The notes below the pieces were generated by a model. It was not told the DNA's origin, did no database searches, and saw only the letters and a program-made list of their open reading frames with translations. The translations under genes were made by a program, and so were the position numbers. DNA of 64,000 nucleotides, from NCBI GenBank assembly GCA_963774935.1, contig CAVZGO010000003.1, positions 389,262-453,261 of the forward strand, read 5' to 3'. How positions within the stretch are numbered: the stretch's first letter is position 1; each line of letters begins with the position of its first letter. Below are positions 34,145 through 59,869 of this stretch, piece after piece. Source of the DNA: an uncultured Chloroflexia bacterium. GTDB lineage: Bacteria; Chloroflexota; Anaerolineae; Anaerolineales; UBA4823.

Positions 34145-34226
34145 TTTTTCTTCTCTCCCAAAAATCTATTACATTAAGTCCTCAGAACGAAACCGAGGTC
34201 CATAATTTCCTTAACCAAATTGTCGC

Positions 34227-36614: not shown

Positions 36615-36649
36615 TTTAGTGGAACACAGTAGTTTAAGATCCGGTTGTT

Positions 36650-37954: not shown

Positions 37955-37998
37955 CGATCCATCCTATATGAACTGGATAATACCTATTGTTATTTAAA

Positions 37999-39084: not shown

Positions 39085-39240
39085 TTTTACTTTACGATCT
39101 CTCTACATTAATTACAAAATAACTACCTGGTTGCTATTATATGTTGCAATTTACCATAACCAGCGTTTAAATTCAGTAAAAAACTCAATTTCTTCAATGA
39201 ATCTTTACAAAATTCAACGAACCTGACCGGATACAGCCTG

Positions 39241-39290
39241 GAAATCAAAACAAATGAGTGGGCAGCGGTTGTACCGCTGCCCACTCATTT
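39241..39290 (-). terminator. Rho-independent terminator after the sigma/anti-sigma operon
   Basis: Perfect 17-bp stem AAATGAGTGGGCAGCGG / CCGCTGCCCACTCATTT with a 5-nt loop, followed on the minus strand by GTTTTGATTTC. Confidence 0.75.
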
Positions 39291-39311
39291 TACACGCTGG
39301 CGATGCTTGAC

Positions 39312-40487: not shown

Positions 40488-40502
40488 TATTATTGCTTTC
40501 CT

Positions 40503-41057: not shown

Positions 41058-41290
41058 CTGGCTGGTATTCTCCTGGTTCGATCAGTCTGATTCCCTCAAC
41101 CAAACCGGGTAAATTATACCGCCATTCAATGCCATTAAATTGCAGTTGCATTCGTTTTTGCAACTCTCTTTGGGATGACCTGGCGATTGGAGCGATTTCA
41201 TGCTTCACCGCCAGGCCATCCCTGGCATTGAGCCAACAAGTCACTATTCTTAAGGTGCGATTTTACTGATCTACCGTGTGTAGCCGCCGA

Positions 41291-42274: not shown

Positions 42275-42975
42275 ACGCCAGCGTGGCTCTGCGATCCGAC
42301 CTGGAACTCGAGCTGCGCCGGAATGGCATCGACCACTTCCACGACCTTGCTGGTGACATCACTGTTGATCACCTGGATGGTATACGTCAGGGTCTCACCA
42401 GGAGCCAGGAAGCGCTGTGAAGCACTTTTATAAGCGTTCAATGGCTGAGGAGTCGGCAGCAGGTTGACGACAGCAACAGGATAGTTGAATAAACCACCAC
42501 CGGTCTCTACACCAACGATAGAAACGGTCGCTGCGTTCACGGTGAGCGTCTCCTGGGTAACCACTACTGCCGGTTTGGCAGTGAAAACCAGGTCCGCCAC
42601 AGTGTGCGCCGGGACAAGGAACGGAGTCCACTCCACAGTATTATTGTTGGCGTGATAGATGCAGGGCTGGAAAGAAATCGCCGCGCAGGCAACAAAGGTC
42701 ATTTCTGACGGAAGAATATCCACCACATTGGCAGTTGCCGCTTCGTCGCTGTTGTTTTCCAGATGGATCGTGTAATTTACGGTTTCTGTTGGGAAAATTG
42801 CCGACTTATCCGCTGTCTTAAGTGAGACGAATGGGACCGCGGTCTCGGATTGGGCAGCCGCCGGGCTCTGTGCTGAAAAGGCGCTTGAGAACAAGACTGC
42901 CAGCACCAGGGCTGCAGATATGAAGAAAAGTGTTAGCCGGTTACTTGAATGCATTGGTCCTCCTATTTTCACCAA
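42250..42975 (-). CDS. Secreted DUF11 (conserved repeat domain) protein, N-terminal fragment with signal peptide
   Basis: Signal peptide LTLFFISAALVLAVLFSSAFSAQ. DUF11 patterns are TVNYTIHLENNSDEAATANVVDILPSEMTFV and LTYTIQVINSDVTSKVVEVVDAIPAQLEF. Confidence 0.65.
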   Translation of the reverse strand: MVKIGGPMHSSNRLTLFFISAALVLAVLFSSAFSAQSPAAAQSETAVPFVSLKTADKSAIFPTETVNYTIHLENNSDEAATANVVDILPSEMTFVACAAISFQPCIYHANNNTVEWTPFLVPAHTVADLVFTAKPAVVVTQETLTVNAATVSIVGVETGGGLFNYPVAVVNLLPTPQPLNAYKSASQRFLAPGETLTYTIQVINSDVTSKVVEVVDAIPAQLEFQVGSQSHAGVWDPALRP

Positions 42976-43138: not shown

Positions 43139-43885
43139 TCATAGATAGGGCAATAACTCGCGAGCGATTACCTGAATTAACAACATTCGTGAATTTGTTA
43201 GATAAAAGTGGTCTCCCGGAAACATGCGCACGCTTGTCGGAATGGTCGTCTGTTCCTGCCAGGCTTGAAGGCTCTGGCGAGTCACATAATGATCGGACAG
43301 GCCACCAAGGGCACATATCGGAAAATCGAATGGCGGCTCTGGTTGATAGACATAGGTCTCACAAATGGTAAAATCGGCTCTCAAAATCGGGACTACCAGG
43401 TCGCGCAGCTCATCGTTTTGGAGCACATCTTCCGGCGTGCCGTTGAGTGTTCGCAGTCTCTCAACAAACTGATCATGTGGCAGGGTATGAATCGGCTCAT
43501 CGGTATCAGGCAATTGCGGCGCGGTATGCCCCGAGACAAACATGTAGAGAGGTGATGCTCCATTATTCCTACGCAGCCAGCGCGCCAGCTCAAAACTGAC
43601 CAGTGCACCCATACTGTGACCAAAAAAAGCAAACGGTTTGTCGAAATACGGGTTAAGAGCATTCCCGGCCTCTTGTATTAACTTTGGAAGGTCCAGCATC
43701 AATGGCTCAGCGATTCGAGTCCCATGGCCGGGGTACTGCACGGGGCACACCTCGATGGAATCGGGTAGTAGATTAGCCCATTGATAATACATCGACGCAG
43801 GAGCACCAGAATATGGGAAGCAAAATAATCGTAATTTTGCATTCGGATTTGCTTTTGGAATGGTTAGCCAGGAGCTGCTTTTCAT
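43139..43885 (-). CDS. Type II thioesterase (alpha/beta hydrolase)
   Basis: LFCFPYSGA, GHSMGA nucleophile elbow and a C-terminal GDHFY motif. The start overlaps the NRPS stop (ATGA). Confidence 0.9.
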   Translation of the reverse strand: MKSSSWLTIPKANPNAKLRLFCFPYSGAPASMYYQWANLLPDSIEVCPVQYPGHGTRIAEPLMLDLPKLIQEAGNALNPYFDKPFAFFGHSMGALVSFELARWLRRNNGASPLYMFVSGHTAPQLPDTDEPIHTLPHDQFVERLRTLNGTPEDVLQNDELRDLVVPILRADFTICETYVYQPEPPFDFPICALGGLSDHYVTRQSLQAWQEQTTIPTSVRMFPGDHFYLTNSRMLLIQVIARELLPYL

Positions 43886-44490
43886 CGCATCTCCTCCAAC
43901 AGCGCACGCACATGATCCATGTAAATCCCAGCCCAGCGCTCGATGGTTGTGCGGTCATGCAAACCGCGGCTGTATAACAGGCGCAGGCTCAACTGACCTC
44001 CGTTCACAATTGCGACCACATAAAGCTTGCTGCTCCGGCGGCTATCAGGGTTTTGTTCCGCACCCGAGAATTCTGGTGCCAGTTCCAACGCAGTCTCTTG
44101 CGCCCCATCTGCACTGTTTCGCTGATTTTCCATCACCTGACCATCCGGGGTAGACACCTCCGGAATGCCAGGTATCTCTACGCCAGTTTGGTCGAACTGT
44201 CCAAGATAGTTAAAATTGATATCCGGTTGGGGTATATTCGATAGGGTTTGCCTTACATATTGATCTTCACAAAGGTATCGCAGCAGCCCATAACCAATTC
44301 CGCGATTAGGCACCTGGTGAACTTGCCGCGAAATTTCATGCAGCAATTGTGCATTCCCCTTTGCAGACTGGAGCTCAAAATACACCGGAAAGATGCTGGT
44401 AAACCAGCCCAGAGATCGAGACAGGTCAGCCCCTTCCAATGCTGTACCTGGTATTTCCTCCCTGCCATGTCCTTCCAATTCAACCAACAA
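43882..44490 (-). CDS. NRPS gene C, fragment 4: C-terminal half of the epimerisation domain
   Basis: E-domain core motifs EGHGRE, LGWFTSIFPV, GIGYGLLRYL and FNYLGQFD. Confidence 0.85.
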   Translation of the reverse strand: MLVELEGHGREEIPGTALEGADLSRSLGWFTSIFPVYFELQSAKGNAQLLHEISRQVHQVPNRGIGYGLLRYLCEDQYVRQTLSNIPQPDINFNYLGQFDQTGVEIPGIPEVSTPDGQVMENQRNSADGAQETALELAPEFSGAEQNPDSRRSSKLYVVAIVNGGQLSLRLLYSRGLHDRTTIERWAGIYMDHVRALLEEMR

Positions 44491-44816
44491 GCCTGTTTGG
44501 TCGCCTGGGATCCAGCGAATGTTTGCACCAACGCCAGCAACAACGCGTCATATACCCGGCAGTTATAAAAACCCGGCAGACGGTGCAGCAGCAAAGCCGT
44601 CTCTTCAGCAGTCAGGGATACGGTAACATCATCCGTATTCCCGTATACGTTTAAGCCGTCTGGATGATCAAGCGGTAAAGCTGTTATGTTTCGACCAGAT
44701 ATCCCAGCCCAGTAATCCAATTCGTCGTGAATTTCAGATGAATTGGCATAGTTCCTGCAGCCGGTTTGCCCAGGCTTGATAAGAAATGGTTTTAGGAGGT
44801 AGTTTGACTTCTCCAC
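44253..44816 (-). CDS. NRPS gene C, fragment 3: middle of the epimerisation domain (true coding about 44492-44750)
   Basis: YANSSEIHDELDYW...LPLD...TAEETALLL...YDALLLALVQTF matches the E-domain region between E2 and E4. Both ends of the ORF are out of frame. Confidence 0.75.
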   Translation of the reverse strand: MEKSNYLLKPFLIKPGQTGCRNYANSSEIHDELDYWAGISGRNITALPLDHPDGLNVYGNTDDVTVSLTAEETALLLHRLPGFYNCRVYDALLLALVQTFAGSQATKQACWLNWKDMAGRKYQVQHWKGLTCLDLWAGLPASFRCILSSSLQRGMHNCCMKFRGKFTRCLIAELVMGCCDTFVKINM

Positions 44817-47800
44817 CTGCCATCAGGTACAGGTAGGTGGTCTGGAAATCTTCCATGAAGATGCGCATGGACACCCCATCCGTGACCAGATGATGGAATA
44901 CAAACAGCAGCCGCCCAGGAGCTTGCTCACCCAGCTTGAAATACACCACTCTAATCAAAGGTGGTTGATCAAGCTGCAGCTCTGCCTGGATCGCCGCCGC
45001 CTGGGCTTCAAGAACTGCCGGTTGATCAGCTGCGGGTATGCCAGATAAATCGATTACCCGGAAAGGCACTGGACATGCCGCCTCAACCGATTGCTGCCAC
45101 TCGCCATCCACCAGCTCGAACTTTGCTCGCAGCTGGTCATGATGGGATAGCAAATGATCCAGAGTTTTTTGAATAATTTCGAGATTTATTCCAGACCAGA
45201 CCTTCAGAAAGATCGAGGTATTGAAATGCGCCGGTGCATCTGCATGGTGTTCGAAGAACCAGCGCTGCACCGGTGTAAGATTGACCTGACCACTGACCAT
45301 CTCCTGCTGCGCAAAGCCTGCCTCAGCCTTCTGTAGCGCTGTCATCAGGTCCTTGAGTACCGGGTGCTCAAATAATAAGCGATAGCTGATCTGAAAACCA
45401 GCCTGTTTTGCACGTGAGACGAGCTGGATGCTCAAGATTGAGTCGCCACCCAGCTCAAAGAACTGATCTCCCAGACCCACCCGCTCGACGCCCAGCAGCT
45501 GTGCCCACAGGCCAGCCATCGACTGCTCCTCAGGCGTCTGCGGGGGCTCGAACGGCTTCTCGATTGCCATTCGGGCTTGCTCTGGCACTGCCATTGCCAG
45601 TAAAACCGCACGGTCAATTTTGCCATTGGTTGTCAATGGAAAAGATTCCATCAAAATGAACGATGCTGGAACCATATAATCGGGCAGCTTCTCACTCACG
45701 TGTTTGCGCAATTCAAGGGCTTGCAAATTCTCGCTGCCTTTCTTCGCCACCAGATATGCCACCAGACGCTTATGACCACCATCCTCACGAGCAAGAACAA
45801 CTGCCTCGTGTACCCCGGGAAATTGGACGATTACACTTTCAATCTCGCCTAATTCCACACGAAAGCCGCGAATCTTCACCTGGTGGTCGATGCGCCCCAG
45901 GTATTCGATATCTCCATCTGGCAGGTAGCGCGCCAGATCGCCTGAACGATAAACACGCTGGTCAGACGACCGGCCAAACATTCCCGGAACAAAGCGCTGG
46001 TCGGTCAGCTCTTGCCGGTTGAGATAGCCCCTTGCCACACCCGCCCCACCAACAAAGAGCTCACCGGGTACGCCAATGGGTACAGGCTGGAAAGACTGAT
46101 CCAGGATGTACACCTGCAAATCGGGGATTGCCTCACCAATCACGCTGCCAGGAGCTGTATCCAAATCCCGCACGTAAATAGGGCGATAAGTGACATGGAC
46201 GGTTGTTTCGGTAATTCCATACATATTTACAAGCTGTGGCTTCTGATCGCCATGGCGTTCAAACCATGGCTTTAAGCTCTGCAGCTCCAGGGCTTCACCG
46301 CCAAAGATGACATAGCGAAGTGCCAGGTCTGGACATACGCCAGAAGCCTCCTCCGCACGAATGAGCTGCCTGAAGGCAGAAGGCGTCTGGTTGAGCACCG
46401 TTACCCCTTCCTGGCAGAGGAGATCATAAAAAGCGTCTGTTGAACGACTGACCAGGTAGGGCACAACCACCAGACGACCGCCATAAAATAACGCACCCCA
46501 TATCTCCCAAACAGAGAAGTCGAAGGCATAAGAGTGGAACAATGTCCAGACGTCAGCAGGTCCAAAGTGGTACCAGTCATCTGTGGCGTAAAACAACCTG
46601 ACCACGTTCGCATGCGTGATCATGCAGCCCTTCGGTTTCCCGGTGGAACCAGACGTATAAATGACATACGCCAAGTTTTCAGGCTTCACTCCGCTGTCGA
46701 GATTGCCAGGATCGATTTCTCCGCCGGTTTCCTGTACTATCTTCTCCCAATCCGTGTCCATGCAAACCAATTGAGCGCTGGTTTGCACCAGATTTGCTAA
46801 CATGCTCGCTTGGGTAATGAGCACAGACGGTTGTTCAGACCCACCAAAGGATTGCTGTGCGCGTGAGTAATCTTCAACGATAAAGGCCAGCCGGCTTGCC
46901 GGATAGGCGGGGTCAAGTGGAACATACGCGCCACCTGATTTTAAGATGCCCAGGATGGCTACCACCACGTCTAAATTCCTCTCAAGGTAGATACCCACCA
47001 GCGATTCGGGACCAACCCCAAGTGATTTCAGATAATGTGCCAGGTGATTAGCGCGTTGGTTTAGCTCAAGATAGGTGAGGCTGACAGCTTCGAATGTGGC
47101 TGCGATTGATTGAGGTGTTTTTAGAACTTGCTCCTCCACCCACTGATGAATGCAACGATCGGATCTATAGGTTGAATGGGGAATATTCCATTCTTCGAGA
47201 AGTTGCCGCTGCTCAGTCGCGGTCAGCATGGGAATCTCCACCAGGCGGCGCGAGACATAGGATGGCATTGCCTCTAATAAAGTACTCAGGTGGCTCATCA
47301 TTCGTTGGATCGTAGCTGGATCAAACAACTGTGCGTCGTAGGAAATTTTGATGAGCATCTCCTCGCCGGGTACAGCTACCACCGTCAATGGGAAATTGGT
47401 ATACGATACAGAGGATCCACCCTCGATATTGACGCTGCTTTTCCCGCCAGTCTGTAACGCGCCGGCGGGGATATTCTCGAAAACCAGCAAACTGTCGAAA
47501 AGCGGTGTACCGCGTGGTACCTGGCTCCACCCCTGGATTTGCACGAGCGGGGTATATTCATAATGCCGGATCTCCACCTGCTCATTCTGAAGCTGCCTTA
47601 ACCACTCGCCTAGCGGTGCTTCGCGGTCAACTTGTACACGGAACGGTAACGTGTTAATGAATAAGCCAATCATATTCTCTGAGCCAGCCAAATCCACTGG
47701 TCGACCAGATACGGTGACACCAAAAACGACATCTTCTTCCCCGCTGTAACGGCTTAGCAAGATAGACCAGGCACCCTGCACCAGGGTATTAAGGGTAATC

Positions 47801-48420
47801 CTCTGCTGTCGCGCCATCATCACCAGGTTGGTGGAGGCTTTCTCGTTGAGTTGCACCTCGATCTCTTTAAACTCAGGTTCATCGGTCAAGGCTAACGGAT
47901 TCAAGCGTGTCACCGATAATGGTGTAGGCGCGCTGAAACCTGCCAGCTTCTTACGCCAGAATCCTTCACTGGCCGTCAGATCCTGGCGTTTTAACCAGAC
48001 GATATAATCTCGATAAGGCCGGCTTTCTGGCAATTGTGGATCAATGCCAGCGACGAGGCTGTTATAGGTGATTAAGATATCCCGCATCAGAAGGGGAATT
48101 GACCAGCCGTCTAACAAGATATGGTGATGACAGACAACTAGCTGATATTCTTCATCACCCGTGCGCAGTACGGCTATACGCAACAAGGGCGGTTTGGTAA
48201 GCAAAAATCCGCGTATACGTTCCTGATGTATATACTGCTCAAGGCGTGAGTGCTGCTCTTCTTCGTTGAACTGTCTCCAATCATGCTCCTCAAAAGGCAG
48301 TTGAACCTGTTTATAGACTACCTGCACTGGTTCCTTTACATTTTCTGAGACGAAAGCAGTTCGCAGAATTGGGTGGCGGTCGATTGTCCTTTGCCAGGTC
48401 TGTCTGAAAAAGGGGTACAT
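44734..48420 (-). CDS. NRPS gene C, fragment 2: condensation (rest) - adenylation (Thr code) - thiolation - epimerisation (N-half)
   Basis: Domain motifs are HHILLDGWS (C), YTSGSTGKPKG...NMYGITETT...GELFVGGAGVARGY...LPLTTNGKIDR (A), FFELGGDSI (T) and TPVQRWFF, HHLVTDGVSMRI (E). Confidence 0.9.
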   Translation of the reverse strand: MYPFFRQTWQRTIDRHPILRTAFVSENVKEPVQVVYKQVQLPFEEHDWRQFNEEEQHSRLEQYIHQERIRGFLLTKPPLLRIAVLRTGDEEYQLVVCHHHILLDGWSIPLLMRDILITYNSLVAGIDPQLPESRPYRDYIVWLKRQDLTASEGFWRKKLAGFSAPTPLSVTRLNPLALTDEPEFKEIEVQLNEKASTNLVMMARQQRITLNTLVQGAWSILLSRYSGEEDVVFGVTVSGRPVDLAGSENMIGLFINTLPFRVQVDREAPLGEWLRQLQNEQVEIRHYEYTPLVQIQGWSQVPRGTPLFDSLLVFENIPAGALQTGGKSSVNIEGGSSVSYTNFPLTVVAVPGEEMLIKISYDAQLFDPATIQRMMSHLSTLLEAMPSYVSRRLVEIPMLTATEQRQLLEEWNIPHSTYRSDRCIHQWVEEQVLKTPQSIAATFEAVSLTYLELNQRANHLAHYLKSLGVGPESLVGIYLERNLDVVVAILGILKSGGAYVPLDPAYPASRLAFIVEDYSRAQQSFGGSEQPSVLITQASMLANLVQTSAQLVCMDTDWEKIVQETGGEIDPGNLDSGVKPENLAYVIYTSGSTGKPKGCMITHANVVRLFYATDDWYHFGPADVWTLFHSYAFDFSVWEIWGALFYGGRLVVVPYLVSRSTDAFYDLLCQEGVTVLNQTPSAFRQLIRAEEASGVCPDLALRYVIFGGEALELQSLKPWFERHGDQKPQLVNMYGITETTVHVTYRPIYVRDLDTAPGSVIGEAIPDLQVYILDQSFQPVPIGVPGELFVGGAGVARGYLNRQELTDQRFVPGMFGRSSDQRVYRSGDLARYLPDGDIEYLGRIDHQVKIRGFRVELGEIESVIVQFPGVHEAVVLAREDGGHKRLVAYLVAKKGSENLQALELRKHVSEKLPDYMVPASFILMESFPLTTNGKIDRAVLLAMAVPEQARMAIEKPFEPPQTPEEQSMAGLWAQLLGVERVGLGDQFFELGGDSILSIQLVSRAKQAGFQISYRLLFEHPVLKDLMTALQKAEAGFAQQEMVSGQVNLTPVQRWFFEHHADAPAHFNTSIFLKVWSGINLEIIQKTLDHLLSHHDQLRAKFELVDGEWQQSVEAACPVPFRVIDLSGIPAADQPAVLEAQAAAIQAELQLDQPPLIRVVYFKLGEQAPGRLLFVFHHLVTDGVSMRIFMEDFQTTYLYLMAGGEVKLPPKTISYQAWANRLQELCQFI

Positions 48421-48547
48421 CCAATGGACCGGTTAAACGAGCAGCGAGCAATTCAATATAGAGTCCTGCACTCGGCTCGAACAAACTATGAAACAGCATC
48501 CCTTGCTGCATCGGTGACAGCGGGTAAATATTTTCTACATTTTCCAT
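48311..48547 (-). CDS. NRPS gene C, fragment 1: start codon and C1 motif of the condensation domain (true coding about 48410-48547)
   Basis: MENVENIYPLSPMQQGMLFHSL... The frame is lost in the CCCCTTTTT run at 48408-48416 and continues in 44734-48420. Confidence 0.75.
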   Translation of the reverse strand: MENVENIYPLSPMQQGMLFHSLFEPSAGLYIELLAARLTGPLDVPLFQTDLAKDNRPPPNSANCFRLRKCKGTSAGSL

Positions 48548-48552: not shown

Positions 48553-49647
48553 CTATCCCTTTTCGATTGGGTTAGTTGTGTATCCCCATTCATCGAAACA
48601 ACGCTGCCAGTTAGCAGCAATCTCTTGACGTAGCGGTTCTGCGATTGGTTTGTGGGTGTTTTTTTTGTAATCCGAAACCTGTTCTGTATATTGCTGGAAT
48701 CTGGGAAGTGCTTCTTGAAAGCCTGGCAAGCCCAATTTTTCATAAATCAACTTCATCTGTTGGATCGGATCTTTTTCCACTTCCTCAAATTGTACATCTA
48801 CCAGGTTCCCTGCCGATATGAGATCTCGTTGCAAAAAGTATGCATCGTACATATCCTTATACCGGCGAAGAATACCAGATACCACACTACCATCCTTTGG
48901 ATTTTGAAGATAAGCTCCTGCAACTGCTGTATTGTATAACTTCATCGTGGATTGAAATACGATAAAAGGATTGCGATGGATATGAATAAATCTCGCATCT
49001 GGATACAACTCTAATATCAGTTTTATCCGCGCAGTGTGAGTCGGAGATTTCATAACCAGAGGTTTGTGATATCTGACAGTTAACTTACGCATAAATAAAT
49101 CCAAGGCTAACTGCCAGCGTTGTGCATCTTTAACATCAGCATGCTCAAATGTGAGAAAGCGATCATAATCAGCTTCATAACGAGGGAACATCCAGGCAAT
49201 CGCTGGTGATCGAAGGCATAATACAGCTATGCCCGCTTCATCCTCACCTGGACTTCGATAAGTGACCTGCATATTGTCCATTGGCCGGCTGGTTGGGCCT
49301 GCATCTCCAGCCATCTTTTCGACTACCGGTTCCCGTGTTAAGAATGTGAATGGTCGAGAGACCTCAAATAGATTTGGGTAAGCAAATTGAGGGTCCCTGG
49401 CAAATAGCTCATGCACCAGAGTGGTGCCGTTACGCCAGTGACCCAGGATAAAGATTGGCTGTTCGATGGTAGCCTTAGCTATCTCAGATTGGTAACTTCT
49501 CTTTTCGTTGCGGTAGTACCATGAATTCATCAGGCTGAACATTGTGACCTGAGAAAATCGACCGAAATACTGCCGGTCAATTGAGAATTTAACCTCCTTC
49601 AGCAGCCGTGTCCAATCACTCCATCGAAATCCAGTCAAAGCATTCAT
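48553..49647 (-). CDS. PAPS-dependent sulfotransferase family protein
   Basis: P-loop-like 5'-PSB motif ILGHWRNGTT and the KSPTHTARI...FIHIHRNPFIVFQS (3'-PB) pattern. It is 364 aa and ends 5 nt before the NRPS gene C start. Confidence 0.75.
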   Translation of the reverse strand: MNALTGFRWSDWTRLLKEVKFSIDRQYFGRFSQVTMFSLMNSWYYRNEKRSYQSEIAKATIEQPIFILGHWRNGTTLVHELFARDPQFAYPNLFEVSRPFTFLTREPVVEKMAGDAGPTSRPMDNMQVTYRSPGEDEAGIAVLCLRSPAIAWMFPRYEADYDRFLTFEHADVKDAQRWQLALDLFMRKLTVRYHKPLVMKSPTHTARIKLILELYPDARFIHIHRNPFIVFQSTMKLYNTAVAGAYLQNPKDGSVVSGILRRYKDMYDAYFLQRDLISAGNLVDVQFEEVEKDPIQQMKLIYEKLGLPGFQEALPRFQQYTEQVSDYKKNTHKPIAEPLRQEIAANWQRCFDEWGYTTNPIEKG

Positions 49648-49735
49648 ACGTGATAATACCTTCCTATTACGCGGTCCTTTATTAGTCTACACTCATTTTG
49701 TCTCTGAATGTGAACCTATGGTAATTAATATGGGA

Positions 49736-52700
49736 TCATTCATCCGAAGAGGATGAATCGATCGCACCTAAGATATTTTTAAAATCCTCATCGCTCCAGC
49801 CGAATTCATCCTGGTCAGATTGCTCCATTAAAGCAGAACCTGGACCGGATTCAGCAGTCACTTGCCCTTGCGAGCTTAGTTGAGCTTCATCAACCAATTC
49901 AGCCAAACCGGCAACGGTCGGCGCTTCAAACAAATGGCGCGGAGATAACTGAAGTCCTGCCTCATTCGCCCGGGCAATAACCTGAATCGCCAGAATTGAA
50001 TCTCCACCCAGCTCGAAGAAGTTGTCCTCAACACTGATCGTAGGTCTTTCCTCATTCGGCTGGTATGCTAATACCTCCCCCCAGATCGATGCCAACATAA
50101 GCTCGTTTGCACTTTGCGGTGCAATATATGGAGATGTGATCGATAATCCTGCTTGCTCAGGAACAGGTAAAGATTTTCGATCAACCTTTCCATTCGGAGT
50201 GAGAGGTAATTCCTTGATGAATAAGAAGATCGCTGGAATCATGTATTCAGGCAACCTGTTGCGCAGGTGAGCCTTTAATTCATCCGCGGAAACCTGCGTC
50301 TCAATCCGATTCTCATTCGAGACGACATAAGCGACAAGCCGTTTTATGCCCGGGGAATCCTCTCTAACGAGCACGACCGAAGTACGTACTCCGGGATGGG
50401 TAGATAACTCAAACTCGATCTCGCCTAGTTCGATGCGGAAGCCGCGGAGTTTCACCTGTTGATCTGCTCGTCCTAAATATTCCAAATTGCCATCCGGCAG
50501 GAAACGACCCAGGTCTCCAGTCCGGTACATGCGCTCTCCGGGAACACCAGAGAATGGATTTAATACGAATTTTTCCTGGGTCAGGTCAGGGCGGTTGAGG
50601 TAGCCTCTCGCCAACCCGATACCAGCCAAATAGATTTCGCCTCTTACACCTTGAGGTACAAGTTGACCATGTGCGTCCAGAACATAAACCTGCATATTCG
50701 GAATAGGATGCCCAATCGGGATACTTGTCGCGTTTCTCGGGACCCCGATCAAGCCAAGGTGATCATTCTCATCAACTCCAACCTCTATTGGAAAATAAGT
50801 CGGACCGATTGTGGCTTCTGTCGGTCCATACGCATTGAACATGTTCCGTCCAGGCGCCCAGCGTTGTGCAATTTCTATCGAGCATGCTTCACCTGCAGAA
50901 ATTAGCGTCTTGAAGGAAGGTAAATTACGAGCAAAAATCTCCGGGTCAAGCACACGCAGCAGTGATGGAGGGATGGTTGCCACGGTCACTTCTTGGTCCT
51001 GCATGACCTTGAGCAAATCCGGCAGCGAGCCTAAAACCTCGTTGCTGGTCAGCACCAAACATGCTCCAGAGAGTAATGCCATGAAGGTCTCGGAGATTGA
51101 CGCATCGAAGCTAAAGGACGCAAATTGAAGAACCTTATCACTGGCTTTAACCCCAAACCCATTAATCTGCTGTTCCACCAGGTTGGTCAAACCAGCATGT
51201 TGCAGCATAACTCCTTTCGGTCGCCCTGTAGAACCGGATGTGTAAATCACATACGCAAGATTCTCCCCTGTAGCAATAACTGATTGTGTTTCCAAGCCCT
51301 CGATGTTTTTCGAAACATTTGCCCAATTCCGATCAAGACACACAATGTGAATATCATTCTTGACCGATTCTGGCAATCGCTCAATCAGATTCTGATGAGT
51401 TAAGAGAAGTGGAGTTTGGGAGTCCTCCAGCATATATGCCAACCGCTCGGGTGGATACGCAGGATCTAGCGGCAAATACGCTCCGCCAGCCTTCAAAATA
51501 CCCAATAAACCGATCACCATGTCCAGGGATCTTTCGATGCAGATTCCTACAATAGTCTCTGGTCCAACACCTTGGCTCCGCAAGTAAGATGAAAGTAAAT
51601 CAGCGTGCTGGTTTAACTCAGCATAAGTGAGCGATTCGGTAAAACCGCCCGGCGGATCTTTTTCAGTTGTTGGAAGCGCAAATACCACTGCAGGGGCATT
51701 CGGCGTAAGCGCAGTTTGAGCCTCGAATAATTCGTGCACGCACTGCCCACTCAGCGGACCACCTGTGGTTTGGCTCCATTGATTAAGGATCAGCTCTCTT
51801 TCCGCTGGTGTGACCATACTGAGCTCTGTCACAGGAAGATCGGGATCTTTTAGAGCACCGTCAACCAATTGAGAAAAATGCAATGCCAATCGCTCAATCG
51901 TAGAGCGCTCGAATAAATCTGTGTTAAATTCTAACGAGCATGATAAAGAAGTATCATTCAGTCGATCACCATTACCAACAGGTGTCTCAACCACTGTTAA
52001 AGTCAAATCAAATCGTGCCACCCCTTCATATAATTCTACAGGCTGGACACTTATATCTGAGGTGAGTCCCTGGTACGATTGAGGCGCATTCTGCAGCACC
52101 AGCATCACCTGGAAAAGCGGATGGTAACTCATGTCCCGAGCAGGATTTACTGCATCAACCAGCATCTCAAATGGCACATCTTGATGAGCGTAAGCGCCTA
52201 AAGCAGTTTCTCGCACTCGCCGTAACAATTGCCGGAAGTCAGGTGCACCAGAGAGATCACCCCTAATGACCAGTGTATTTACAAAAAAGCCGAGTAAATG
52301 CTCAATCTCTGAACGCGTTCGGTTGGCGATCGGAGTACCTACTGCAAACTCATCCTGCCCGGTGTAGCGATAGAGCAGCAGCTGGAAGGCTGCCATCAAC
52401 GTCATGAATAGAGTTGCCCCTTCTTGATGTGTTAGCGCTTTAAGTTGTGCGGTTTGTTCCGGTGAAATTTCAAATGTAATCTGTCCACCAGTGTATGTTT
52501 GCACTGGAGGGCGTGACCTGTCGATCGGGAGCTCTAGAACAGGTGGTAGACCAGCTAATTGTTTCTTCCAGTATTCAAGCTGGTTTTCGAGAATTTCACC
52601 TTGCAACCAGCTTCTTTGCCAGGCAGAATAATCACTGTACTGAATTGGTAATTCATCCAGCTTCAATAGTGGACTAATTTGCGAGCTATCTTTTTCTTGC

Positions 52701-55700
52701 AGGAACCTGGAATAAAAAATCAGCAGCTCTTGCATGAATATATTCAACGACCAGTCATCCGAGATGATGTGATGGGTATTCAGAAGGATAGTATGTTGGT
52801 CTTCTGAAGTCTGGATGATGCATAAGCGTGTTAATGGCCCAATAGCCAGATCGAAAGGACGCAGGGCAGATTCCAGCGCTAACTGTTCCGATTGGTCAAG
52901 GCGTTGCGTTTCAGGCAATCCGCTGAGATCATGGAACTCAAGCTGTACATCCATCTCAGTAAGTACAAGCTGGTAGGGCACTCCGGCAATAGACTTAAAA
53001 ACTGTTCGCAAGATCTCATGGCGCTGGGTAAGCTGCGTCAGTGCTGCTTTTAGCGCTTCCATATCCAGAAAGCCAGTAAGCTGCAGCGCAACCGGTATGT
53101 TGTACAATGGACTGTTCGGGTTTAATTGATCAAGCACCCACAATCGCTGTTGTGCATACGAAAGCAGTGCCGGTTTTACGGGTAGTCCGGTCGACGCATT
53201 GCGTTCAAGCGCCTGGATCGGTGGTGCAACAATGCCCATGGCGGAGCGGCGGGCAATGTCAATCTGGTTAGCCAATCCCGCAACCGTAGGCGTCTCAAAC
53301 AGGCTACGCAATGGGAGCTCAATTCCAAATGCATCTCGCACGCGTGAGATAACCTGGGTAGCCAGCAGCGAGTGGCCACCCAGATCGAAGAAATTATCAA
53401 GTACACCGACTTGTTCTAAATGCAGGATATCTCTCCAGAGATTGGCGATGATTTCTTCTTCAGGTGTGCGCGGCAGGACAATTCCAGCCCGCGCCGCCGA
53501 CAAATCCGGCTGTGGCAGCGCCTTGCGATCCACCTTCCCATTGGCAGTCAATGGCAATGCTTCCAAAATGACAACTGCGGCAGGAACCATGTAGTCTGGT
53601 AATTTTTGTTGGAGGCTCTGGCGCAGCCCAGATATCAGTTCCTGTTGGTTCGATCCCATATTATCCGGATTTAACACAAGATAAGCCACCAGGTTCTTAG
53701 TGCCACCTTCTTCCCAAACCCAAACAACATTCTCCTTGATCCAGGAATATTGGGCAATCAAAGCTTCAATTTCGCCAAGCTCGACGCGAAAACCGCGCAC
53801 TTTGACCTGAAAATCTATACGTCCAAGACAATCCAGGTTACCATCGTGTCGATATCGAACCAGATCACCAGTGCGATAAAGCCGGGCTCCCGGTTCATTT
53901 GTGAAAGGATTCGGAATAAATTTCTCGGCGGTCAATTCGGGTCGATTTAAATAACCGCGCCCAACCCCTAAGCCGCCAATATAAAGCTCACCATGCACTC
54001 CTACGGGTACAGGCTGCATGTGCGAATCCAGGACGTACAACTGGGTGTTGATGATCGGTTTACCGATAGGAATCACACCGCCTTTATATCGAATCAGGCT
54101 GTCTGGTGGCGCCCAATATACACAACAACCAACTACTGTCTCTGTTGGCCCATATTCATTGACTAAAGCTGTATCCGGAGCATTGTTAATCCAAAAGCGG
54201 ATATGTTCAGGGGTCAGGTTTTCACCGCCAATGATAAAAGCATGGGTGCGTCCAGCCGCTTGATCGGGTCTAAGCTGTTCCCCGAGTAGCTGGAGGTGAG
54301 CCGGGGTTATCTTCACCAGGCTGTACGGCTCAGACGTTTGCTCTGCATCTCGACGAAGGGTTGCCCCCAGCAATTCGACCCCTAATCCTTCCGGTAGAAT
54401 TTTAACTTCTCGACCAGAAACCAGTGGCGAAAACAGACTGGTAATCGTCAGATCGAATGAAATTGATGAGTGAACCGGAGAACCTTGACCTTCTTCTAAT
54501 GGATATGCTGTTTGACACCAGGTGAGGTAGTTAACCAATCCACGATGAACGATCATCGCCCCCTTTGGCCGGCCGGTTGATCCAGATGTGTAAATTACAT
54601 AAACCAGGTTGTCAGGCTCTGTGATGCAGTCTAAATTGTCGCCCGGTTCGAACTCCAAGAACGGCCATTCCTGATCCAGACACAGGATTGCTGGTTTTCC
54701 AGGCTCGACAGCCTCCACCATGTTTGAGGAATTGAGATCAAATCGTGTTAGCAAGCTGGAATGGGTGATTAAAACAGCCGCTTGTGAATCCTCCAGCATA
54801 AACGATAGTCGCTCACTCGGATAGGTCGGATCCAAAGGCACATAAGCGCCACCAGCTTTTAAGACCGCCAGGATCGACACCACCAGCTGAGGAGAGCGCG
54901 GCAGACATAAACCTACCAAAACCTCTGGTACGATCCCCAACTTGCGCAAATGCCGTGCCAGTCGATTGGCAGCCTGGTTTAACTCATGGTAGGTCCATGT
55001 TTCTTCTACAGACTTGCCATCTATTTCTTCTAAATAGCGTAAAGCAACAGCCTGTGGTGTACGGTCAACTTGCAGCTCGAATAATTGGTGTGCGCACATG
55101 TCGCTGGGATAAGGCGCGGCGGTCTGGTTCCATTCCACCAGAATTTGTTGCATCTGCTTATCGGTTAGAATCGGTAAACGCGAAACGCTCATGTCAGGAT
55201 TGGATACTATTCCACCTAAAAGCAACTCAAAATTACCCAGCATTTGATCGATGGTTGCATCATCGAATAAATCGGTGTTATATTCCAATGCCCCACCAAG
55301 CTGACCTTCATCCTCAGCCATAAACAGCGTCAAATCAAACTTGGCTGTCCCGCTATGTGTATCAACCGGTTGCACCTGCAAATCTAAATCAGGCAATCCT
55401 AGTGCGCTGCTCTGTGCAGCTTGAAGGACAAACATCACCTGGAATAATGGGCTGTGACTCAGGTTGCGCTCTGGTTGCAGGGCATCAACAACCATCTCAA
55501 AAGGAACATCCTGATGAGCATAGGCGTTTAATGCACCCTGACGTGTGCGGCTTAGTAATTCGCGAAAAGATGGCTCGCCACCCAGGTCAGCCCGCAGGAC
55601 AAGTGTATTGACAAAAAAGCCAATTAATCCCTCAAGCTCCGCACGCGTTCGGTTGGCAATGGGTGTGCCAATTGCAAGATCCTCCTGACCACTGTAGCGG

Positions 55701-57013
55701 TGAAGCAATACTTCAAAAACAGAGAGAAGTGTCATGAAGAGGGTTGCATTTTCGCTCTGTGATAACGCTCGTAATTTCTTGGTCAGGTCAGAAGAAAGCT
55801 TAAAAGTGCGAAAATTGCCATCAAAAGTTTGCATGGACGGCCGCGGGCGGTCCGTAGGCAGCTCCAATAAAGGTGGTAGACCCCTAAGCTCTTGTTTCCA
55901 ATAGCTGAGCTGATTGTCTAGCACTTCGCCTTGCAGCCACTCCCTCTGCCAGGCAGCAAAATCTGGATATTGGACAGGCATTGCAGGCAAAGGATATGGT
56001 CGTTGATTGACCAGGGAATCATAAAGTGCCACCATCTCGCCAACGAGAACATTTGATGACCAGTTATCGCCGATGATGTGGTGCATCGTCAATAACACCA
56101 GCGTCTCTTGTTCGCCCAACCGGACCAGGCTGGCACGGAATAAAGGACCAGCGGATAGGTTGAATGGTCTCTGCGCTTCTTCCTGGGTAATGCGAAGCAC
56201 TTCCTGTTCCCGCTTGTCATCGGGCAGATGACTGATATCCATTCGGAAAATATTCACTGGCTTCAACTCTGCCAGAGGTGTAATCACTTGTATCGGGATT
56301 CCATTAATCGTACTGAATGCTGTTCGTAATGCTTCATGTCGTTGAACCAGTAAATTCAAACTTTGCACTAAAATTTGCTCATCAAGCTCCCCCACCAGAC
56401 GGATGGCTTCGGGTAAATTGTAGAATGGGCTATCCGGTTCGAGTTGGTCAAGAAACCATAGACGCTGCTGGGCAAAAGAAAGGGGAACTGGATCGACTGG
56501 CAGCCCCGTCAGGGGGTTGCGGGGTAGCGGACTTAACGCAGGAATATGGAGTTCCTCCGGCTGGGCATATTCCATTACCTCAATTTGCTCAGCCAGCCGG
56601 ATTATGGTTGGAGATTCAAATAAATTGCGCAATGGCAAATCAACATTAAACACTTCGCGTAATCGAGAAACTAGCTGTGTAGCGAGAAGAGAATGCCCAC
56701 CAAGCTCAAAGAAATTATCGTTTACGCCAATCTTTTGAATGCCTAAAATCTGGCCCCATACATCCACCAACATCTCCTCTACAGGTGTGTGCGGTGCAAC
56801 ATAGGCGTTCGCCAATGTTCGCTCGCTCCAATCAGGACGATGGGTTTCAGTTAATGCGCGACGGTCTACTTTTCCACTCGGGTTTAACGGTAATGAGTTC
56901 CAAAAACACAAACGCCGAAGGCACCATATAATCCGGCAGGTGTTCTTGTAAATAGCGGCGCAGCGTACCTGTCGTCGGTTTATCCAGGCTTGGATCAGGC
57001 ACCACATAAGCAA
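49736..57013 (-). CDS. NRPS gene B, fragment 2: T-C-A(Asn code)-T-C-A(Tyr-like code)-T (true coding from about 56895; the ORF N-terminus is out of frame)
   Basis: Three FFxLGG(H/D)S T motifs, two LCL C domains (SFAQQRLWFLDQ/HHIIGDNWS; SYAQQRLWVLDQ/HHIISDDWS), two A domains (YTSGSTGRPKG, NEYGPTE / NAYGPTE, GKVDRK) and an acidic C-terminal tail. Confidence 0.9.
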   Translation of the reverse strand: MLMWCLIQAWINRRQVRCAAIYKNTCRIIWCLRRLCFWNSLPLNPSGKVDRRALTETHRPDWSERTLANAYVAPHTPVEEMLVDVWGQILGIQKIGVNDNFFELGGHSLLATQLVSRLREVFNVDLPLRNLFESPTIIRLAEQIEVMEYAQPEELHIPALSPLPRNPLTGLPVDPVPLSFAQQRLWFLDQLEPDSPFYNLPEAIRLVGELDEQILVQSLNLLVQRHEALRTAFSTINGIPIQVITPLAELKPVNIFRMDISHLPDDKREQEVLRITQEEAQRPFNLSAGPLFRASLVRLGEQETLVLLTMHHIIGDNWSSNVLVGEMVALYDSLVNQRPYPLPAMPVQYPDFAAWQREWLQGEVLDNQLSYWKQELRGLPPLLELPTDRPRPSMQTFDGNFRTFKLSSDLTKKLRALSQSENATLFMTLLSVFEVLLHRYSGQEDLAIGTPIANRTRAELEGLIGFFVNTLVLRADLGGEPSFRELLSRTRQGALNAYAHQDVPFEMVVDALQPERNLSHSPLFQVMFVLQAAQSSALGLPDLDLQVQPVDTHSGTAKFDLTLFMAEDEGQLGGALEYNTDLFDDATIDQMLGNFELLLGGIVSNPDMSVSRLPILTDKQMQQILVEWNQTAAPYPSDMCAHQLFELQVDRTPQAVALRYLEEIDGKSVEETWTYHELNQAANRLARHLRKLGIVPEVLVGLCLPRSPQLVVSILAVLKAGGAYVPLDPTYPSERLSFMLEDSQAAVLITHSSLLTRFDLNSSNMVEAVEPGKPAILCLDQEWPFLEFEPGDNLDCITEPDNLVYVIYTSGSTGRPKGAMIVHRGLVNYLTWCQTAYPLEEGQGSPVHSSISFDLTITSLFSPLVSGREVKILPEGLGVELLGATLRRDAEQTSEPYSLVKITPAHLQLLGEQLRPDQAAGRTHAFIIGGENLTPEHIRFWINNAPDTALVNEYGPTETVVGCCVYWAPPDSLIRYKGGVIPIGKPIINTQLYVLDSHMQPVPVGVHGELYIGGLGVGRGYLNRPELTAEKFIPNPFTNEPGARLYRTGDLVRYRHDGNLDCLGRIDFQVKVRGFRVELGEIEALIAQYSWIKENVVWVWEEGGTKNLVAYLVLNPDNMGSNQQELISGLRQSLQQKLPDYMVPAAVVILEALPLTANGKVDRKALPQPDLSAARAGIVLPRTPEEEIIANLWRDILHLEQVGVLDNFFDLGGHSLLATQVISRVRDAFGIELPLRSLFETPTVAGLANQIDIARRSAMGIVAPPIQALERNASTGLPVKPALLSYAQQRLWVLDQLNPNSPLYNIPVALQLTGFLDMEALKAALTQLTQRHEILRTVFKSIAGVPYQLVLTEMDVQLEFHDLSGLPETQRLDQSEQLALESALRPFDLAIGPLTRLCIIQTSEDQHTILLNTHHIISDDWSLNIFMQELLIFYSRFLQEKDSSQISPLLKLDELPIQYSDYSAWQRSWLQGEILENQLEYWKKQLAGLPPVLELPIDRSRPPVQTYTGGQITFEISPEQTAQLKALTHQEGATLFMTLMAAFQLLLYRYTGQDEFAVGTPIANRTRSEIEHLLGFFVNTLVIRGDLSGAPDFRQLLRRVRETALGAYAHQDVPFEMLVDAVNPARDMSYHPLFQVMLVLQNAPQSYQGLTSDISVQPVELYEGVARFDLTLTVVETPVGNGDRLNDTSLSCSLEFNTDLFERSTIERLALHFSQLVDGALKDPDLPVTELSMVTPAERELILNQWSQTTGGPLSGQCVHELFEAQTALTPNAPAVVFALPTTEKDPPGGFTESLTYAELNQHADLLSSYLRSQGVGPETIVGICIERSLDMVIGLLGILKAGGAYLPLDPAYPPERLAYMLEDSQTPLLLTHQNLIERLPESVKNDIHIVCLDRNWANVSKNIEGLETQSVIATGENLAYVIYTSGSTGRPKGVMLQHAGLTNLVEQQINGFGVKASDKVLQFASFSFDASISETFMALLSGACLVLTSNEVLGSLPDLLKVMQDQEVTVATIPPSLLRVLDPEIFARNLPSFKTLISAGEACSIEIAQRWAPGRNMFNAYGPTEATIGPTYFPIEVGVDENDHLGLIGVPRNATSIPIGHPIPNMQVYVLDAHGQLVPQGVRGEIYLAGIGLARGYLNRPDLTQEKFVLNPFSGVPGERMYRTGDLGRFLPDGNLEYLGRADQQVKLRGFRIELGEIEFELSTHPGVRTSVVLVREDSPGIKRLVAYVVSNENRIETQVSADELKAHLRNRLPEYMIPAIFLFIKELPLTPNGKVDRKSLPVPEQAGLSITSPYIAPQSANELMLASIWGEVLAYQPNEERPTISVEDNFFELGGDSILAIQVIARANEAGLQLSPRHLFEAPTVAGLAELVDEAQLSSQGQVTAESGPGSALMEQSDQDEFGWSDEDFKNILGAIDSSSSDE

Positions 57014-59861: not shown

Positions 59862-59869
59862 AGTTGGTT

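What the first reader, a model, noticed from the sequence alone, without database searches (positions are those of the whole stretch)
48553..49647. Sulfotransferase gene wedged inside the NRPS operon: candidate sulfated nonribosomal peptide
A 364-aa protein with PAPS-binding-type motifs (ILGHWRNGTT; KSPTHTARI...FIHIHRNPFIVFQS) lies 88 nt after NRPS gene B. It ends 5 nt before the start of NRPS gene C, so it is almost certainly co-transcribed. Gene B's last module has a Tyr-like code and gene C activates Thr, so a phenolic or aliphatic hydroxyl is available for O-sulfation. Sulfated NRPs are rare. Established examples include the glycopeptide A47934 (StaL), sulfazecin and some aeruginosins/cyanopeptolins. 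None that I know of comes from this lineage.
Basis: partly seen in the sequence, partly recalled or inferred. Interest (0 to 1): 0.6.

Follow-up and report, generated by a model that had tools for sequence, protein, structure and literature searches.

The report
Tailoring sulfotransferase inside a peptide-synthetase operon
A real, intact sulfate-adding enzyme gene sits between two genes of a giant peptide-making assembly line in an uncultured Chloroflexota bacterium, and it belongs to an unstudied enzyme branch that travels with such assembly lines in several phyla, so the product is probably a sulfated (most likely tyrosine-sulfated) lipopeptide that nobody has isolated.

Summary
A 364-aa ORF lies on the minus strand at 48553-49647, 88 nt after one NRPS gene and 5 nt before the next. 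It is a Sulfotransfer_3 (PF13469) enzyme with invariant PAPS-binding motifs. Its confident model is closest to mycobacterial Stf9 and Stf1, not to StaL.

The gene is under purifying selection (dN/dS 0.07-0.12), and the genome encodes a PAPS synthase. The wider family is widespread and mostly not next to NRPS or PKS genes. The well-supported branch holding this protein is different: 8 of 12 species-representative loci and 8 of 8 metagenome look-ups sit directly beside NRPS genes.

Every sulfotransferase-bearing cluster with at least two readable adenylation domains has a Tyr-like module. None of 12 related clusters without the sulfotransferase shows one. Tyrosine O-sulfation of a roughly 67-kb hybrid PKS-NRPS product is therefore the best reading. 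The target and the timing are inferred, not shown.

Caveats: the downstream NRPS gene carries single-base frame breaks in this assembly.

The same cluster also has a CurM-type sulfotransferase domain built into an NRPS module, outside the window.

The scan has noted this kind of thing before on other DNA (KSB1, Calditrichota).

The parts
48553..49647 (-). Stand-alone PAPS-type sulfotransferase gene (364 aa, PF13469 Sulfotransfer_3). 5'-phosphosulfate loop G69-H-W-R72-N-G74-T75-T76; K200-S201-P202; 3'-phosphate motif R225...S233.
49648..49735 (-). 88-nt spacer between the NRPS gene B stop and the sulfotransferase ATG. It has an AGGAAGG Shine-Dalgarno-like run 11 nt before the ATG and no promoter or terminator above shuffle expectation.
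49736..57013 (-). NRPS ORF (gene B, 2425 aa as listed): T-C-A(DLTKIGEVG, Asx-like)-T-C-A(DASTIAAIG, Tyr-like)-T. The last carrier has the GGDSI motif (at 50011), and no E domain follows. It is joined upstream to 56847-59861 by a frame break near 56899.
50597..51727 (-). Adenylation domain of the Tyr-like module (code DASTIAAIG+K), the proposed source of the sulfated residue.
43882..48547 (-). NRPS gene C: DCL-type C (YPLSPMQQGM) - A(DFWNIGMVH, Thr) - T(GGDSI) - E. It starts 5 nt after the sulfotransferase stop. In this assembly it is broken by extra bases near 48411, 44751 and 44509; it is intact (1553 aa) in the relative L001, whose sulfotransferase is 98% identical.
43139..43885 (-). Stand-alone thioesterase (PF00975, 248 aa). 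It overlaps the end of gene C by 4 nt and is the only thioesterase in the cluster.
56847..64000 (-). Further upstream NRPS modules inside the window: A(Phe, DAWTIAAVC) and an Orn-like A. The assembly line continues about 46 kb beyond the window end.
32912..42975 (-). Conserved accessory block that follows the cluster in relatives: DUF11/CLIPPER secreted protein (41291-42975, one frame break), ECF sigma (40503-41057), DUF5667 protein (39312-40487), ABC ATPase (37999-39084), 434-aa protein, FtsX permease (34227-36614) and HlyD-type adaptor (32912-34144).
   Evidence: for the ORFs; Pfam labels from the collinear relatives L001, L090, L092 and L093

Best explanation
The gene encodes an active PAPS-dependent O-sulfotransferase. 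It is a dedicated tailoring enzyme of the surrounding hybrid PKS-NRPS assembly line. That line comprises a loading ACP, two PKS modules and about 15 NRPS modules, spans about 67 kb, and is the only NRPS cluster in this Chloroflexota genome.

The gene is transcribed with the synthetase genes and is probably translationally coupled to the next one. PAPS comes from a bifunctional ATP-sulfurylase/APS-kinase encoded elsewhere in the genome.

The most likely acceptor is the phenolic hydroxyl of the Tyr-like residue loaded by the module encoded immediately upstream. That would give a sulfotyrosine-containing lipopeptide, which is then exported by the adjacent ABC/FtsX/HlyD system.

Shown: enzyme family, intact cofactor motifs, fold, purifying selection, conserved linkage to NRPS genes across phyla, co-occurrence with Tyr-like modules, and presence of PAPS synthesis.

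Inferred: the acceptor atom, whether sulfation occurs on the carrier-bound intermediate or on the released peptide, and that the cluster is expressed.
For: Enzyme family and cofactor site:
- PF13469 scores 116.7 bits against a cut-off of 27.
- G69, H70, W71, R72, G74, T75, K200, S201, P202, R225 and S233 are invariant in 34 homologues.
- These residues align to the PRSGST / KSP / RHPY..S motifs of OLS and CurM ST and of Stf9.
- The AlphaFold model has pLDDT 92.1. Its best fold matches are Stf1 and Stf9 (TM up to 0.72), followed by tyrosylprotein sulfotransferases.

Selection:
- dN/dS is 0.12 against L001 and 0.07 against L002.

Linkage to NRPS genes:
- The protein falls in a 33-row branch with 99% SH-aLRT support.
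- In that branch 8 of 12 species-representative loci are NRPS-adjacent, against 4 of 68 outside it (Fisher p=7e-6).
- All 8 metagenome look-ups in the branch show NRPS genes directly upstream.
- A KSB1 relative carries a PAPS synthase inside the same cluster.

Link to a Tyr-like module:
- A DAST[IV]A[AG][IV]x module (DAAT in one locus) is present in all 17 sulfotransferase-bearing clusters with at least two readable A domains.
- It is absent from all 12 thioesterase-related clusters that lack the sulfotransferase.
- Thr modules are not universal.

Cofactor supply and transcription:
- The genome's own PAPS synthase is at C7:335591-337324.
- The spacers contain no terminator or promoter above shuffle expectation.
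Against: - There is no chemical or expression evidence.
- The Tyr assignment of the DAST code rests on my recollection of the Stachelhaus code. My three exact-string searches of the held papers for the DAST code found no paper, and no specificity predictor was available.
- The sulfotransferase-bearing clusters share ancestry (a recurring Asx-Tyr-Thr tail), so the co-occurrence counts are not independent events.
- In the clusters lacking the sulfotransferase only one or two modules were visible.
- A catalytic base could not be assigned. The position near CurM Glu60 / TPST Glu99 varies between E and Q in the family.
- The gene's GC content (44%) is lower than that of its neighbours (49-52%).
- The PAPS synthase lies on another contig of a binned genome.
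Confidence: 0.6

Rival explanations
1. It is a tailoring sulfotransferase of the same product, but it acts on a different hydroxyl: the Thr loaded by gene C, a beta-hydroxyl left by the KS-AT-KR module, or another hydroxylated residue.
For: Gene C loads Thr and starts 5 nt after the sulfotransferase. Thr is the last module before the sulfotransferase in L046, L097, L099 and L127. A KR-only PKS module exists upstream. The best structural relatives, Stf1 and Stf9, are not known as phenol-specific enzymes.
Against: Thr modules are missing from the visible part of several sulfotransferase-bearing clusters (L090, L008, L052, L098, L179). The Tyr-like module is always there. The cluster has a second, built-in CurM-type sulfotransferase domain that is better placed to act on a chain hydroxyl.
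Confidence: 0.2
2. Sulfation is activating rather than decorative. The sulfate ester serves as a leaving group for elimination, cyclisation or release, as in CurM ST-TE or SulN with the SulM TE, and is absent from the final product.
For: The assembly line ends in T-E with no built-in release domain, and only a stand-alone thioesterase follows. In L090 and L093 the sulfotransferase and thioesterase genes abut or overlap. SulN-type trans sulfonation of a carrier-bound intermediate before thioesterase chemistry is documented (PMC11298585).
Against: The protein is only distantly related to CurM and OLS ST (14-16% identity). The sulfotransferase-thioesterase adjacency is not conserved: an MFS gene intervenes in L097-L099. 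An aryl sulfate on Tyr is a poor leaving group for such chemistry. The thioesterase is an ordinary PF00975 type.
Confidence: 0.08
3. The cluster is decaying in this organism. The sulfotransferase is intact, but the synthetase genes are pseudogenes, so no sulfated peptide is made here.
For: There are frame breaks at about 56899, 48411, 44751 and 44509 in the window.
Against: The breaks are single-base or two-base indels. Most, but not all, lie in short homopolymer runs. They are private to each of two assemblies that share about 97% DNA identity, and L001 has its own, different breaks. The short-read relative L002 and L001 both lack the extra base at 48411. The sulfotransferase is under purifying selection.
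Confidence: 0.07
4. It is a housekeeping lipid or glycan sulfotransferase (some databases annotate homologues as the Stf3-type sulfomenaquinone enzyme) that merely lies among NRPS genes.
For: Sources name several homologues 'omega-hydroxy-beta-dihydromenaquinone-9 sulfotransferase' or 'NodH'. Most of the broad family lies outside NRPS/PKS clusters, some members beside UbiA-like or HMG-CoA-reductase genes.
Against: The position between or right after NRPS genes is conserved in Chloroflexota, Bacteroidota, Acidobacteriota, Calditrichota, Ignavibacteriota and KSB1. The 5-nt spacing to gene C also argues against it. The genome has other sulfotransferases in a glycan cluster for such roles.
Confidence: 0.05

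Closest known systems
Mycobacterial sulfotransferases Stf9 (M. avium, PDB 2Z6V) and Stf1 (M. tuberculosis, PDB 2ZQ5)
   Same: They are the best sequence and fold matches (profile E=3e-18 and 3e-15; Foldseek probability 1.0, TM up to 0.72). They share the PF13469-type core and the same PAPS loops.
   Different: Identity is only 16-18%. They are not encoded in NRPS clusters, and their substrates differ or are unknown. There is no orthology.
StaL / Teg12-14 glycopeptide sulfotransferases
   Same: They are stand-alone PAPS-dependent enzymes that O-sulfate a phenolic residue of a non-ribosomal peptide.
   Different: They belong to a different family (Sulfotransfer_1). Here PF00685 scores below its cut-off (18.5 against 22). 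No StaL-like chain appears in the PDB sequence hits or in the top 50 fold hits.
AerL sulfotransferases of cyanobacterial aeruginosin clusters
   Same: They are accessory stand-alone sulfotransferase genes in NRPS clusters. aerL2 presence correlates with sulfation of the phenolic Hpla unit (PMC10744761).
   Different: They come from a different phylum, and no cyanobacterial protein appears among the 120 best homologues. The sequence relationship to AerL was not tested.
SulN of the sulfazecin pathway
   Same: It is a stand-alone sulfotransferase encoded with NRPS genes that acts in trans on a carrier-bound intermediate (PMC11298585). This is a possible mode of action here, given the gene's place between two synthetase genes.
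   Different: SulN N-sulfonates diaminopropionate to set up beta-lactam formation. Here O-sulfation is expected, and the timing is unknown.
CurM / olefin-synthase ST domains (PDB 4GBM, 4GOX) and the OciA-type built-in sulfotransferase domains of cyanopeptolin synthetases
   Same: They share the fold and PAPS motifs. The same cluster contains a true CurM-type domain (E=6.7e-60) built into an NRPS module. Built-in sulfotransferase domains in NRPSs are documented for oci (PMC2533009).
   Different: The gene studied here is free-standing and only distantly related (14-16% identity). It does not form an ACP-ST-TE unit.
Tyrosylprotein sulfotransferases (TPST1/2; bacterial RaxST)
   Same: They are the second tier of fold matches (E about 1e-6) and carry out peptide-tyrosine O-sulfation chemistry.
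   Different: TM is only about 0.45. The catalytic Glu position is not conserved in this family. Their substrates are ribosomal.

Membership tests
PAPS-dependent sulfotransferases, Pfam PF13469 (Sulfotransfer_3) | Profile match above the curated cut-off over the whole domain | tested here: met
   116.7 bits against a cut-off of 27; profile positions 1-215 of 216
PAPS-dependent sulfotransferases, Pfam PF13469 (Sulfotransfer_3) | 5'-phosphosulfate-binding loop (xRxGTT/ST after the first strand) | tested here: met
   G69-H-W-R72-N-G74-T75-T76 has G69, H70, W71, R72, G74 and T75 invariant and T76 at least 90% conserved. It aligns to PRTGTT of Stf9 and PRSGST of OLS and CurM ST.
PAPS-dependent sulfotransferases, Pfam PF13469 (Sulfotransfer_3) | 3'-phosphate-binding motif (Arg ... 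Ser about 8 residues on) and the KSP strand | tested here: met
   K200, S201, P202, R225 and S233 are invariant. They align to DKSPTY and RHPY..ES of CurM and OLS.
PAPS-dependent sulfotransferases, Pfam PF13469 (Sulfotransfer_3) | Sulfotransferase alpha/beta fold | tested here: met
   Model pLDDT 92.1, pTM 0.91. The 50 listed fold matches, which include all 44 with E<=0.001, are all sulfotransferases or the sulfotransferase-fold enzyme retinol dehydratase.
PAPS-dependent sulfotransferases, Pfam PF13469 (Sulfotransfer_3) | Identifiable catalytic base (His or Glu) next to the acceptor | tested here: inconclusive
   The residue near the CurM Glu60 / TPST Glu99 position (E95) is E or Q in the family. 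The invariant residues H70, H79, E135 and E137, and the nearly invariant H204, are candidates. No model coordinates were available to measure distances.
PAPS-dependent sulfotransferases, Pfam PF13469 (Sulfotransfer_3) | PAPS available in the cell | tested here: met
   A PUA_2 - ATP-sulfurylase - APS-kinase protein of 577 aa lies at C7:335591-337324. It is on another contig of the binned genome.
StaL/Teg-type glycopeptide sulfotransferases (PF00685, Sulfotransfer_1) | Membership of PF00685 and close similarity to the StaL or Teg structures | tested here: not met
   PF00685 scores 18.5 bits, below its cut-off of 22. There is no StaL or Teg chain among the PDB sequence hits at E<=1 or the top 50 fold hits.
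CurM/OLS activating ST domains | High similarity to 4GBM/4GOX and an in-cis carrier-ST-TE architecture | tested here: not met
   Profile E is only 3.7e-5 to 2.4e-8, with 14-16% identity, and the gene is free-standing. By contrast, the built-in domain of the same cluster scores 6.7e-60.
NRPS-associated branch of the Stf-like family (uncharacterised; defined here) | Falls inside the supported branch whose members lie directly beside NRPS genes | tested here: met
   The branch has 33 rows and SH-aLRT 99. NRPS-adjacent: 8 of 12 representative loci and 8 of 8 metagenome look-ups.
NRPS-associated branch of the Stf-like family (uncharacterised; defined here) | Co-occurrence with a Tyr-like (DAST-type) adenylation domain | tested here: met
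   Present in the window (DASTIAAIG) and in all relatives with at least two visible A domains. The Tyr reading of the code is recalled, not verified.
Tyrosylprotein sulfotransferases (TPST/RaxST) | Close fold match and a conserved catalytic Glu | tested here: not met
   TM about 0.45 and 13-16% identity. The Glu position is not conserved.

The most novel reading that the evidence does not exclude
The sulfate is not a simple decoration put on the finished peptide. Instead the free-standing enzyme would work on the assembly line itself. It would sulfate the carrier-bound Tyr or peptidyl intermediate at the unusual junction where an epimerase-type carrier (GGDSI) meets a D-donor-type condensation domain with no epimerase between them. 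Alternatively it would install a sulfate that is later used as a leaving group or handle for release in a line that has no built-in release domain. Together with the second, built-in CurM-type domain (T-ST-C), this would make on-line sulfation a recurring but unstudied step of non-ribosomal peptide synthesis in uncultured phyla.
Probability: 0.12. Interest if true: 0.7.

Novelty: new member of a known kind. Interest (0 to 1): 0.45.

Why it matters
Sulfated non-ribosomal peptides are few, and the characterised tailoring sulfotransferases come from a handful of actinomycete, proteobacterial and cyanobacterial pathways.

This gene marks an uncharacterised Stf-like branch that is tied to NRPS clusters in at least six mostly uncultured phyla. 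My one three-term search of the held papers (Chloroflexota, NRPS, sulfotransferase) found no paper for Chloroflexota.

If the prediction holds, it would give:
- a simple genomic marker (this sulfotransferase plus a DAST-type module) for mining sulfotyrosine lipopeptides;
- a new peptide-tyrosine sulfotransferase for biocatalysis;
- a first product class for a widespread orphan cluster family with a conserved sigma/anti-sigma and exporter block.

Tried and rejected
- StaL-like membership: rejected.
- Promoter and terminator scan of the spacers: nothing above the shuffled expectation.
- Literature look-ups of the DAST specificity code by exact string (three variants): no paper.
- Search for 'Chloroflexota + NRPS + sulfotransferase': no paper.
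- 'Sulfotransfer_3' in papers: no title or abstract among the 11 hits concerned an NRPS-linked sulfotransferase; the full texts were not read.
- Short-query tblastn for extracting adenylation codes was too insensitive. I replaced it with a small HMM built from the cluster's own domains.
- Clustering of the neighbours of the 80 representative loci showed no single conserved partner for the broad family: NRPS in 14, PPTase in 11, UbiA-like in 11, MFS in 9, thioesterase in 8, HMG-CoA reductase in 8. A single housekeeping role for the whole family is therefore not supported either.
- An N-terminal docking domain as the explanation for residues 1-60: rejected, because that helical region is conserved in non-NRPS members too.
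Full report
**Observation**

The ORF is real and sits at exactly the stated coordinates, but on the minus strand. It encodes 364 aa and contains the quoted strings.
- The upstream NRPS ORF stops at 49736, which leaves an 88-nt spacer.
- The sulfotransferase stop is at 48555-48553.
- An ATG at 48547 opens MENVENIYPLSPMQQGMLFH, the first motif of a condensation domain, so the 5-nt gap is right.
- The spacers hold no promoter-like or terminator-like site beyond what shuffled sequence gives. Shine-Dalgarno-like runs precede both starts, so co-transcription and coupling are plausible.

**What the protein is**

- Pfam gives Sulfotransfer_3 (PF13469) at E=2.4e-33. Sulfotransfer_1 falls below its cut-off, and NCBIfam has no model for it.
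- Against solved structures, by sequence, it finds only Stf9 (2Z6V), Stf1 (2ZQ5) and, weakly, the OLS and CurM ST domains.
- In an alignment of 34 homologues the cofactor elements are invariant: G69-H-W-R72-x-G74-T75, K200-S201-P202 and R225...S233. They line up with the corresponding loops of Stf9, OLS and CurM ST.
- An AlphaFold model built on that alignment is confident (pLDDT 92.1, pTM 0.91).
- Its best fold matches are Stf1 and Stf9 (TM up to 0.72). Tyrosylprotein sulfotransferases come next, then the OLS and CurM ST domains. StaL-type enzymes are not among the top 50.
- I could not assign a catalytic base. The residue near the CurM/TPST glutamate position varies between E and Q.
- The gene is under purifying selection: dN/dS is 0.12 against a relative with 98% protein identity and 0.07 against one with 87%.
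- Its GC content (44%) is somewhat below that of the flanking synthetase genes (49-52%).

**Where it sits**

- The window is C3:389262-453261 of a 3.3-Mb, 13-contig binned genome.
- The RpoB core is 74% identical to a Caldilineaceae genome and 70% to an Anaerolineae genome, against 59-65% for a cyanobacterium, an acidobacterium and an armatimonadete.
- All condensation domains of the genome lie in one cluster, C3:433149-492370.
- Reading outwards from the window, the line is:
  - carboxyltransferase
  - loading ACP
  - KS-AT-DH-ER-KR-ACP
  - C-A(Tyr-like)-T
  - KS-AT-KR-ACP
  - about 13 further NRPS modules with three E domains
  - the sulfotransferase
  - DCL-A(Thr)-T-E
  - a stand-alone thioesterase
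- A DUF11/CLIPPER protein, an ECF sigma, a DUF5667 protein and an ABC/FtsX/HlyD exporter follow.

**Frame breaks**

- Gene C and one upstream junction are out of frame in the window.
- I compared the window with L001, a metagenome contig with 97% DNA identity over 21 kb. The two differ by 15 short indels, most of them at short homopolymer runs. Each assembly has its own frame-breaking indels, and gene C is intact (1553 aa) in L001.
- A short-read contig of a more distant relative (L002) also lacks the extra base at 48411.
- I therefore read them as long-read assembly errors.

**Is it a cluster enzyme or a housekeeping one?**

- The family is large: 2885 hits among the scored candidates and at least 569 in species-representative genomes.
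- Of the 80 best representative loci only 12 have NRPS or PKS genes within 10 kb. The others have varied neighbours.
- On a tree, the window protein falls in a 33-row branch with 99% SH-aLRT support.
  - That branch holds 8 of the 12 NRPS/PKS-adjacent loci.
  - Within it 8 of 12 representative loci are NRPS-adjacent. A ninth has only the accessory genes on a short contig.
  - Outside it only 4 of 68 loci are adjacent, all four to PKS genes (Fisher p=7e-6).
- All eight metagenome members that I looked up lie directly after, or between, NRPS genes.
- The relatives at 56-60% identity share the whole downstream block: thioesterase, DUF11 protein (absent in L090), sigma, DUF5667 protein and exporter.
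- More distant members from Chloroflexaceae, KSB1 and a third, unnamed metagenome contig are followed instead by MFS, thioesterase and PPTase genes, plus MbtH in two of the three.
- The KSB1 cluster also contains its own PAPS synthase.
- The window's genome encodes a PUA-ATP-sulfurylase-APS-kinase protein in a glycan cluster on contig C7.

**Likely acceptor**

- In every sulfotransferase-bearing cluster where at least two adenylation domains are visible, one of the last three modules has a DAST[IV]A[AG][IV]x code (DAAT in one).
- It often sits in a recurring Asx-Tyr-(X)-Thr tail. Thr modules are not universal.
- As a contrast I fetched the 80 closest metagenome relatives of the cluster's thioesterase.
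  - The two with a sulfotransferase and readable modules have a DAST module.
  - The twelve with readable modules but no sulfotransferase have none.
  - One of those twelve has Asn followed by DAAFVAAIG, a more hydrophobic code.
- This favours the Tyr-like residue as the target.
- Limits:
  - The clusters are related by descent.
  - Few modules are visible in the loci without a sulfotransferase.
  - The reading of DAST as Tyr (one change, W239S, from the Phe code also present in this cluster) rests on my memory of the Stachelhaus code and could not be confirmed in the held papers.

**Mode of action**

Whether sulfation happens on the carrier-bound chain or after release cannot be told from sequence.
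- SulN sulfonates a carrier-bound intermediate (PMC11298585).
- StaL acts after release (established knowledge).

The gene's place between the Tyr-like module and the next gene is compatible with either.

**Comparison with known systems**

- Functionally it resembles StaL/Teg and AerL. aerL2 presence correlates with sulfation of phenolic Hpla (PMC10744761).
- By family it is not StaL-like. It is a member of an uncharacterised NRPS-linked branch of the Stf9/Stf1-like sulfotransferases.
- I rate it a new member of a known kind, namely a tailoring sulfotransferase of a peptide cluster.
- The scan has described the same kind of gene before on other DNA: KSB1 (e1-698760) and Calditrichota (e1-5023130). 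I reached the same reading from my own data before seeing those notes.

**Seen in passing**

- The same assembly line has a true CurM-type sulfotransferase domain (E=6.7e-60 to 4GBM) built in as A(Ile/Val-like)-T-ST-C, outside the window.
- The carrier of the Tyr-like module has the GGDSI motif typical of carriers that feed E domains, and the next C domain is of the D-donor type, yet no E domain lies between them. The same is true in three relatives.
- Two consecutive modules look like an exact tandem duplicate: their adenylation cores (135 aa shown) are identical and the ORFs recur at a 3261-nt offset.

Noticed in passing
L088:4947-5969 (minus strand; G000:C3 about 476193-476858; outside the window, about 23 kb beyond its end): A second sulfotransferase in the same cluster. 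It is a CurM/OLS-type ST domain (E=6.7e-60 to PDB 4GBM) built into an NRPS protein as A(DAFFMGVTF, Ile/Val-like)-T(GGDSL)-ST-C. What it sulfates is open, because the preceding module looks aliphatic. The scan has noted the same layout elsewhere (e1-4826288, e1-2079281, e1-5254878).
   Followed up: partly
window 48526-50011: The carrier of the Tyr-like module has the GGDSI core typical of carriers that feed epimerase domains. The next C domain has the D-donor type C1 motif (YPLSPMQQGM). No E domain lies between them, only the sulfotransferase gene. The same E-less junction occurs in L001, L092 and L093, while L090 has an E domain there.
   Followed up: partly
L086:3999-12059 (G000:C3:456263-464329): Two consecutive NRPS modules (code DTEDIGTVV) look like an exact tandem duplicate. 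Their adenylation cores (135 aa shown) are identical, and the opposite-strand ORFs recur at a 3261-nt offset. This is either a very recent duplication or an assembly collapse or expansion.
   Followed up: no
window about 56899, 48411, 44751, 44509, 42259: Single-base or two-base indels, most of them in short homopolymer runs, break NRPS and DUF11 reading frames. The 97%-identical contig L001 has different breaks at other sites. This points to long-read consensus errors in both assemblies.
   Followed up: partly
L095:9591-11324 (G000:C7:335591-337324) and neighbours: A bifunctional PAPS synthase (PUA_2, ATP-sulfurylase, APS kinase) lies in a glycan cluster with another sulfotransferase (PF13469/PF00685), two NeuB-type synthases, a cytidylyltransferase and a Gfo/Idh/MocA oxidoreductase. 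This suggests a sulfated nonulosonic-acid-type surface glycan.
   Followed up: no
L098:18590-20299: In a KSB1 relative the NRPS-sulfotransferase cluster carries its own PAPS synthase gene, together with MbtH, a carnitine-type acyltransferase, a thioesterase and a PPTase.
   Followed up: no
L048:5553-7867: A Cytophagia contig has two tandem paralogues of this sulfotransferase after MFS, thioesterase and PPTase-like genes. This fits doubly sulfated products in some relatives.
   Followed up: no
loci L037, L041 and others: Outside the NRPS branch, family members recur beside UbiA-like prenyltransferase genes (11 loci, e.g. the Opitutus locus L037) or HMG-CoA reductase genes (8 loci, e.g. the Lentibacter locus L041). 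This hints at sulfated isoprenoid lipids.
   Followed up: no
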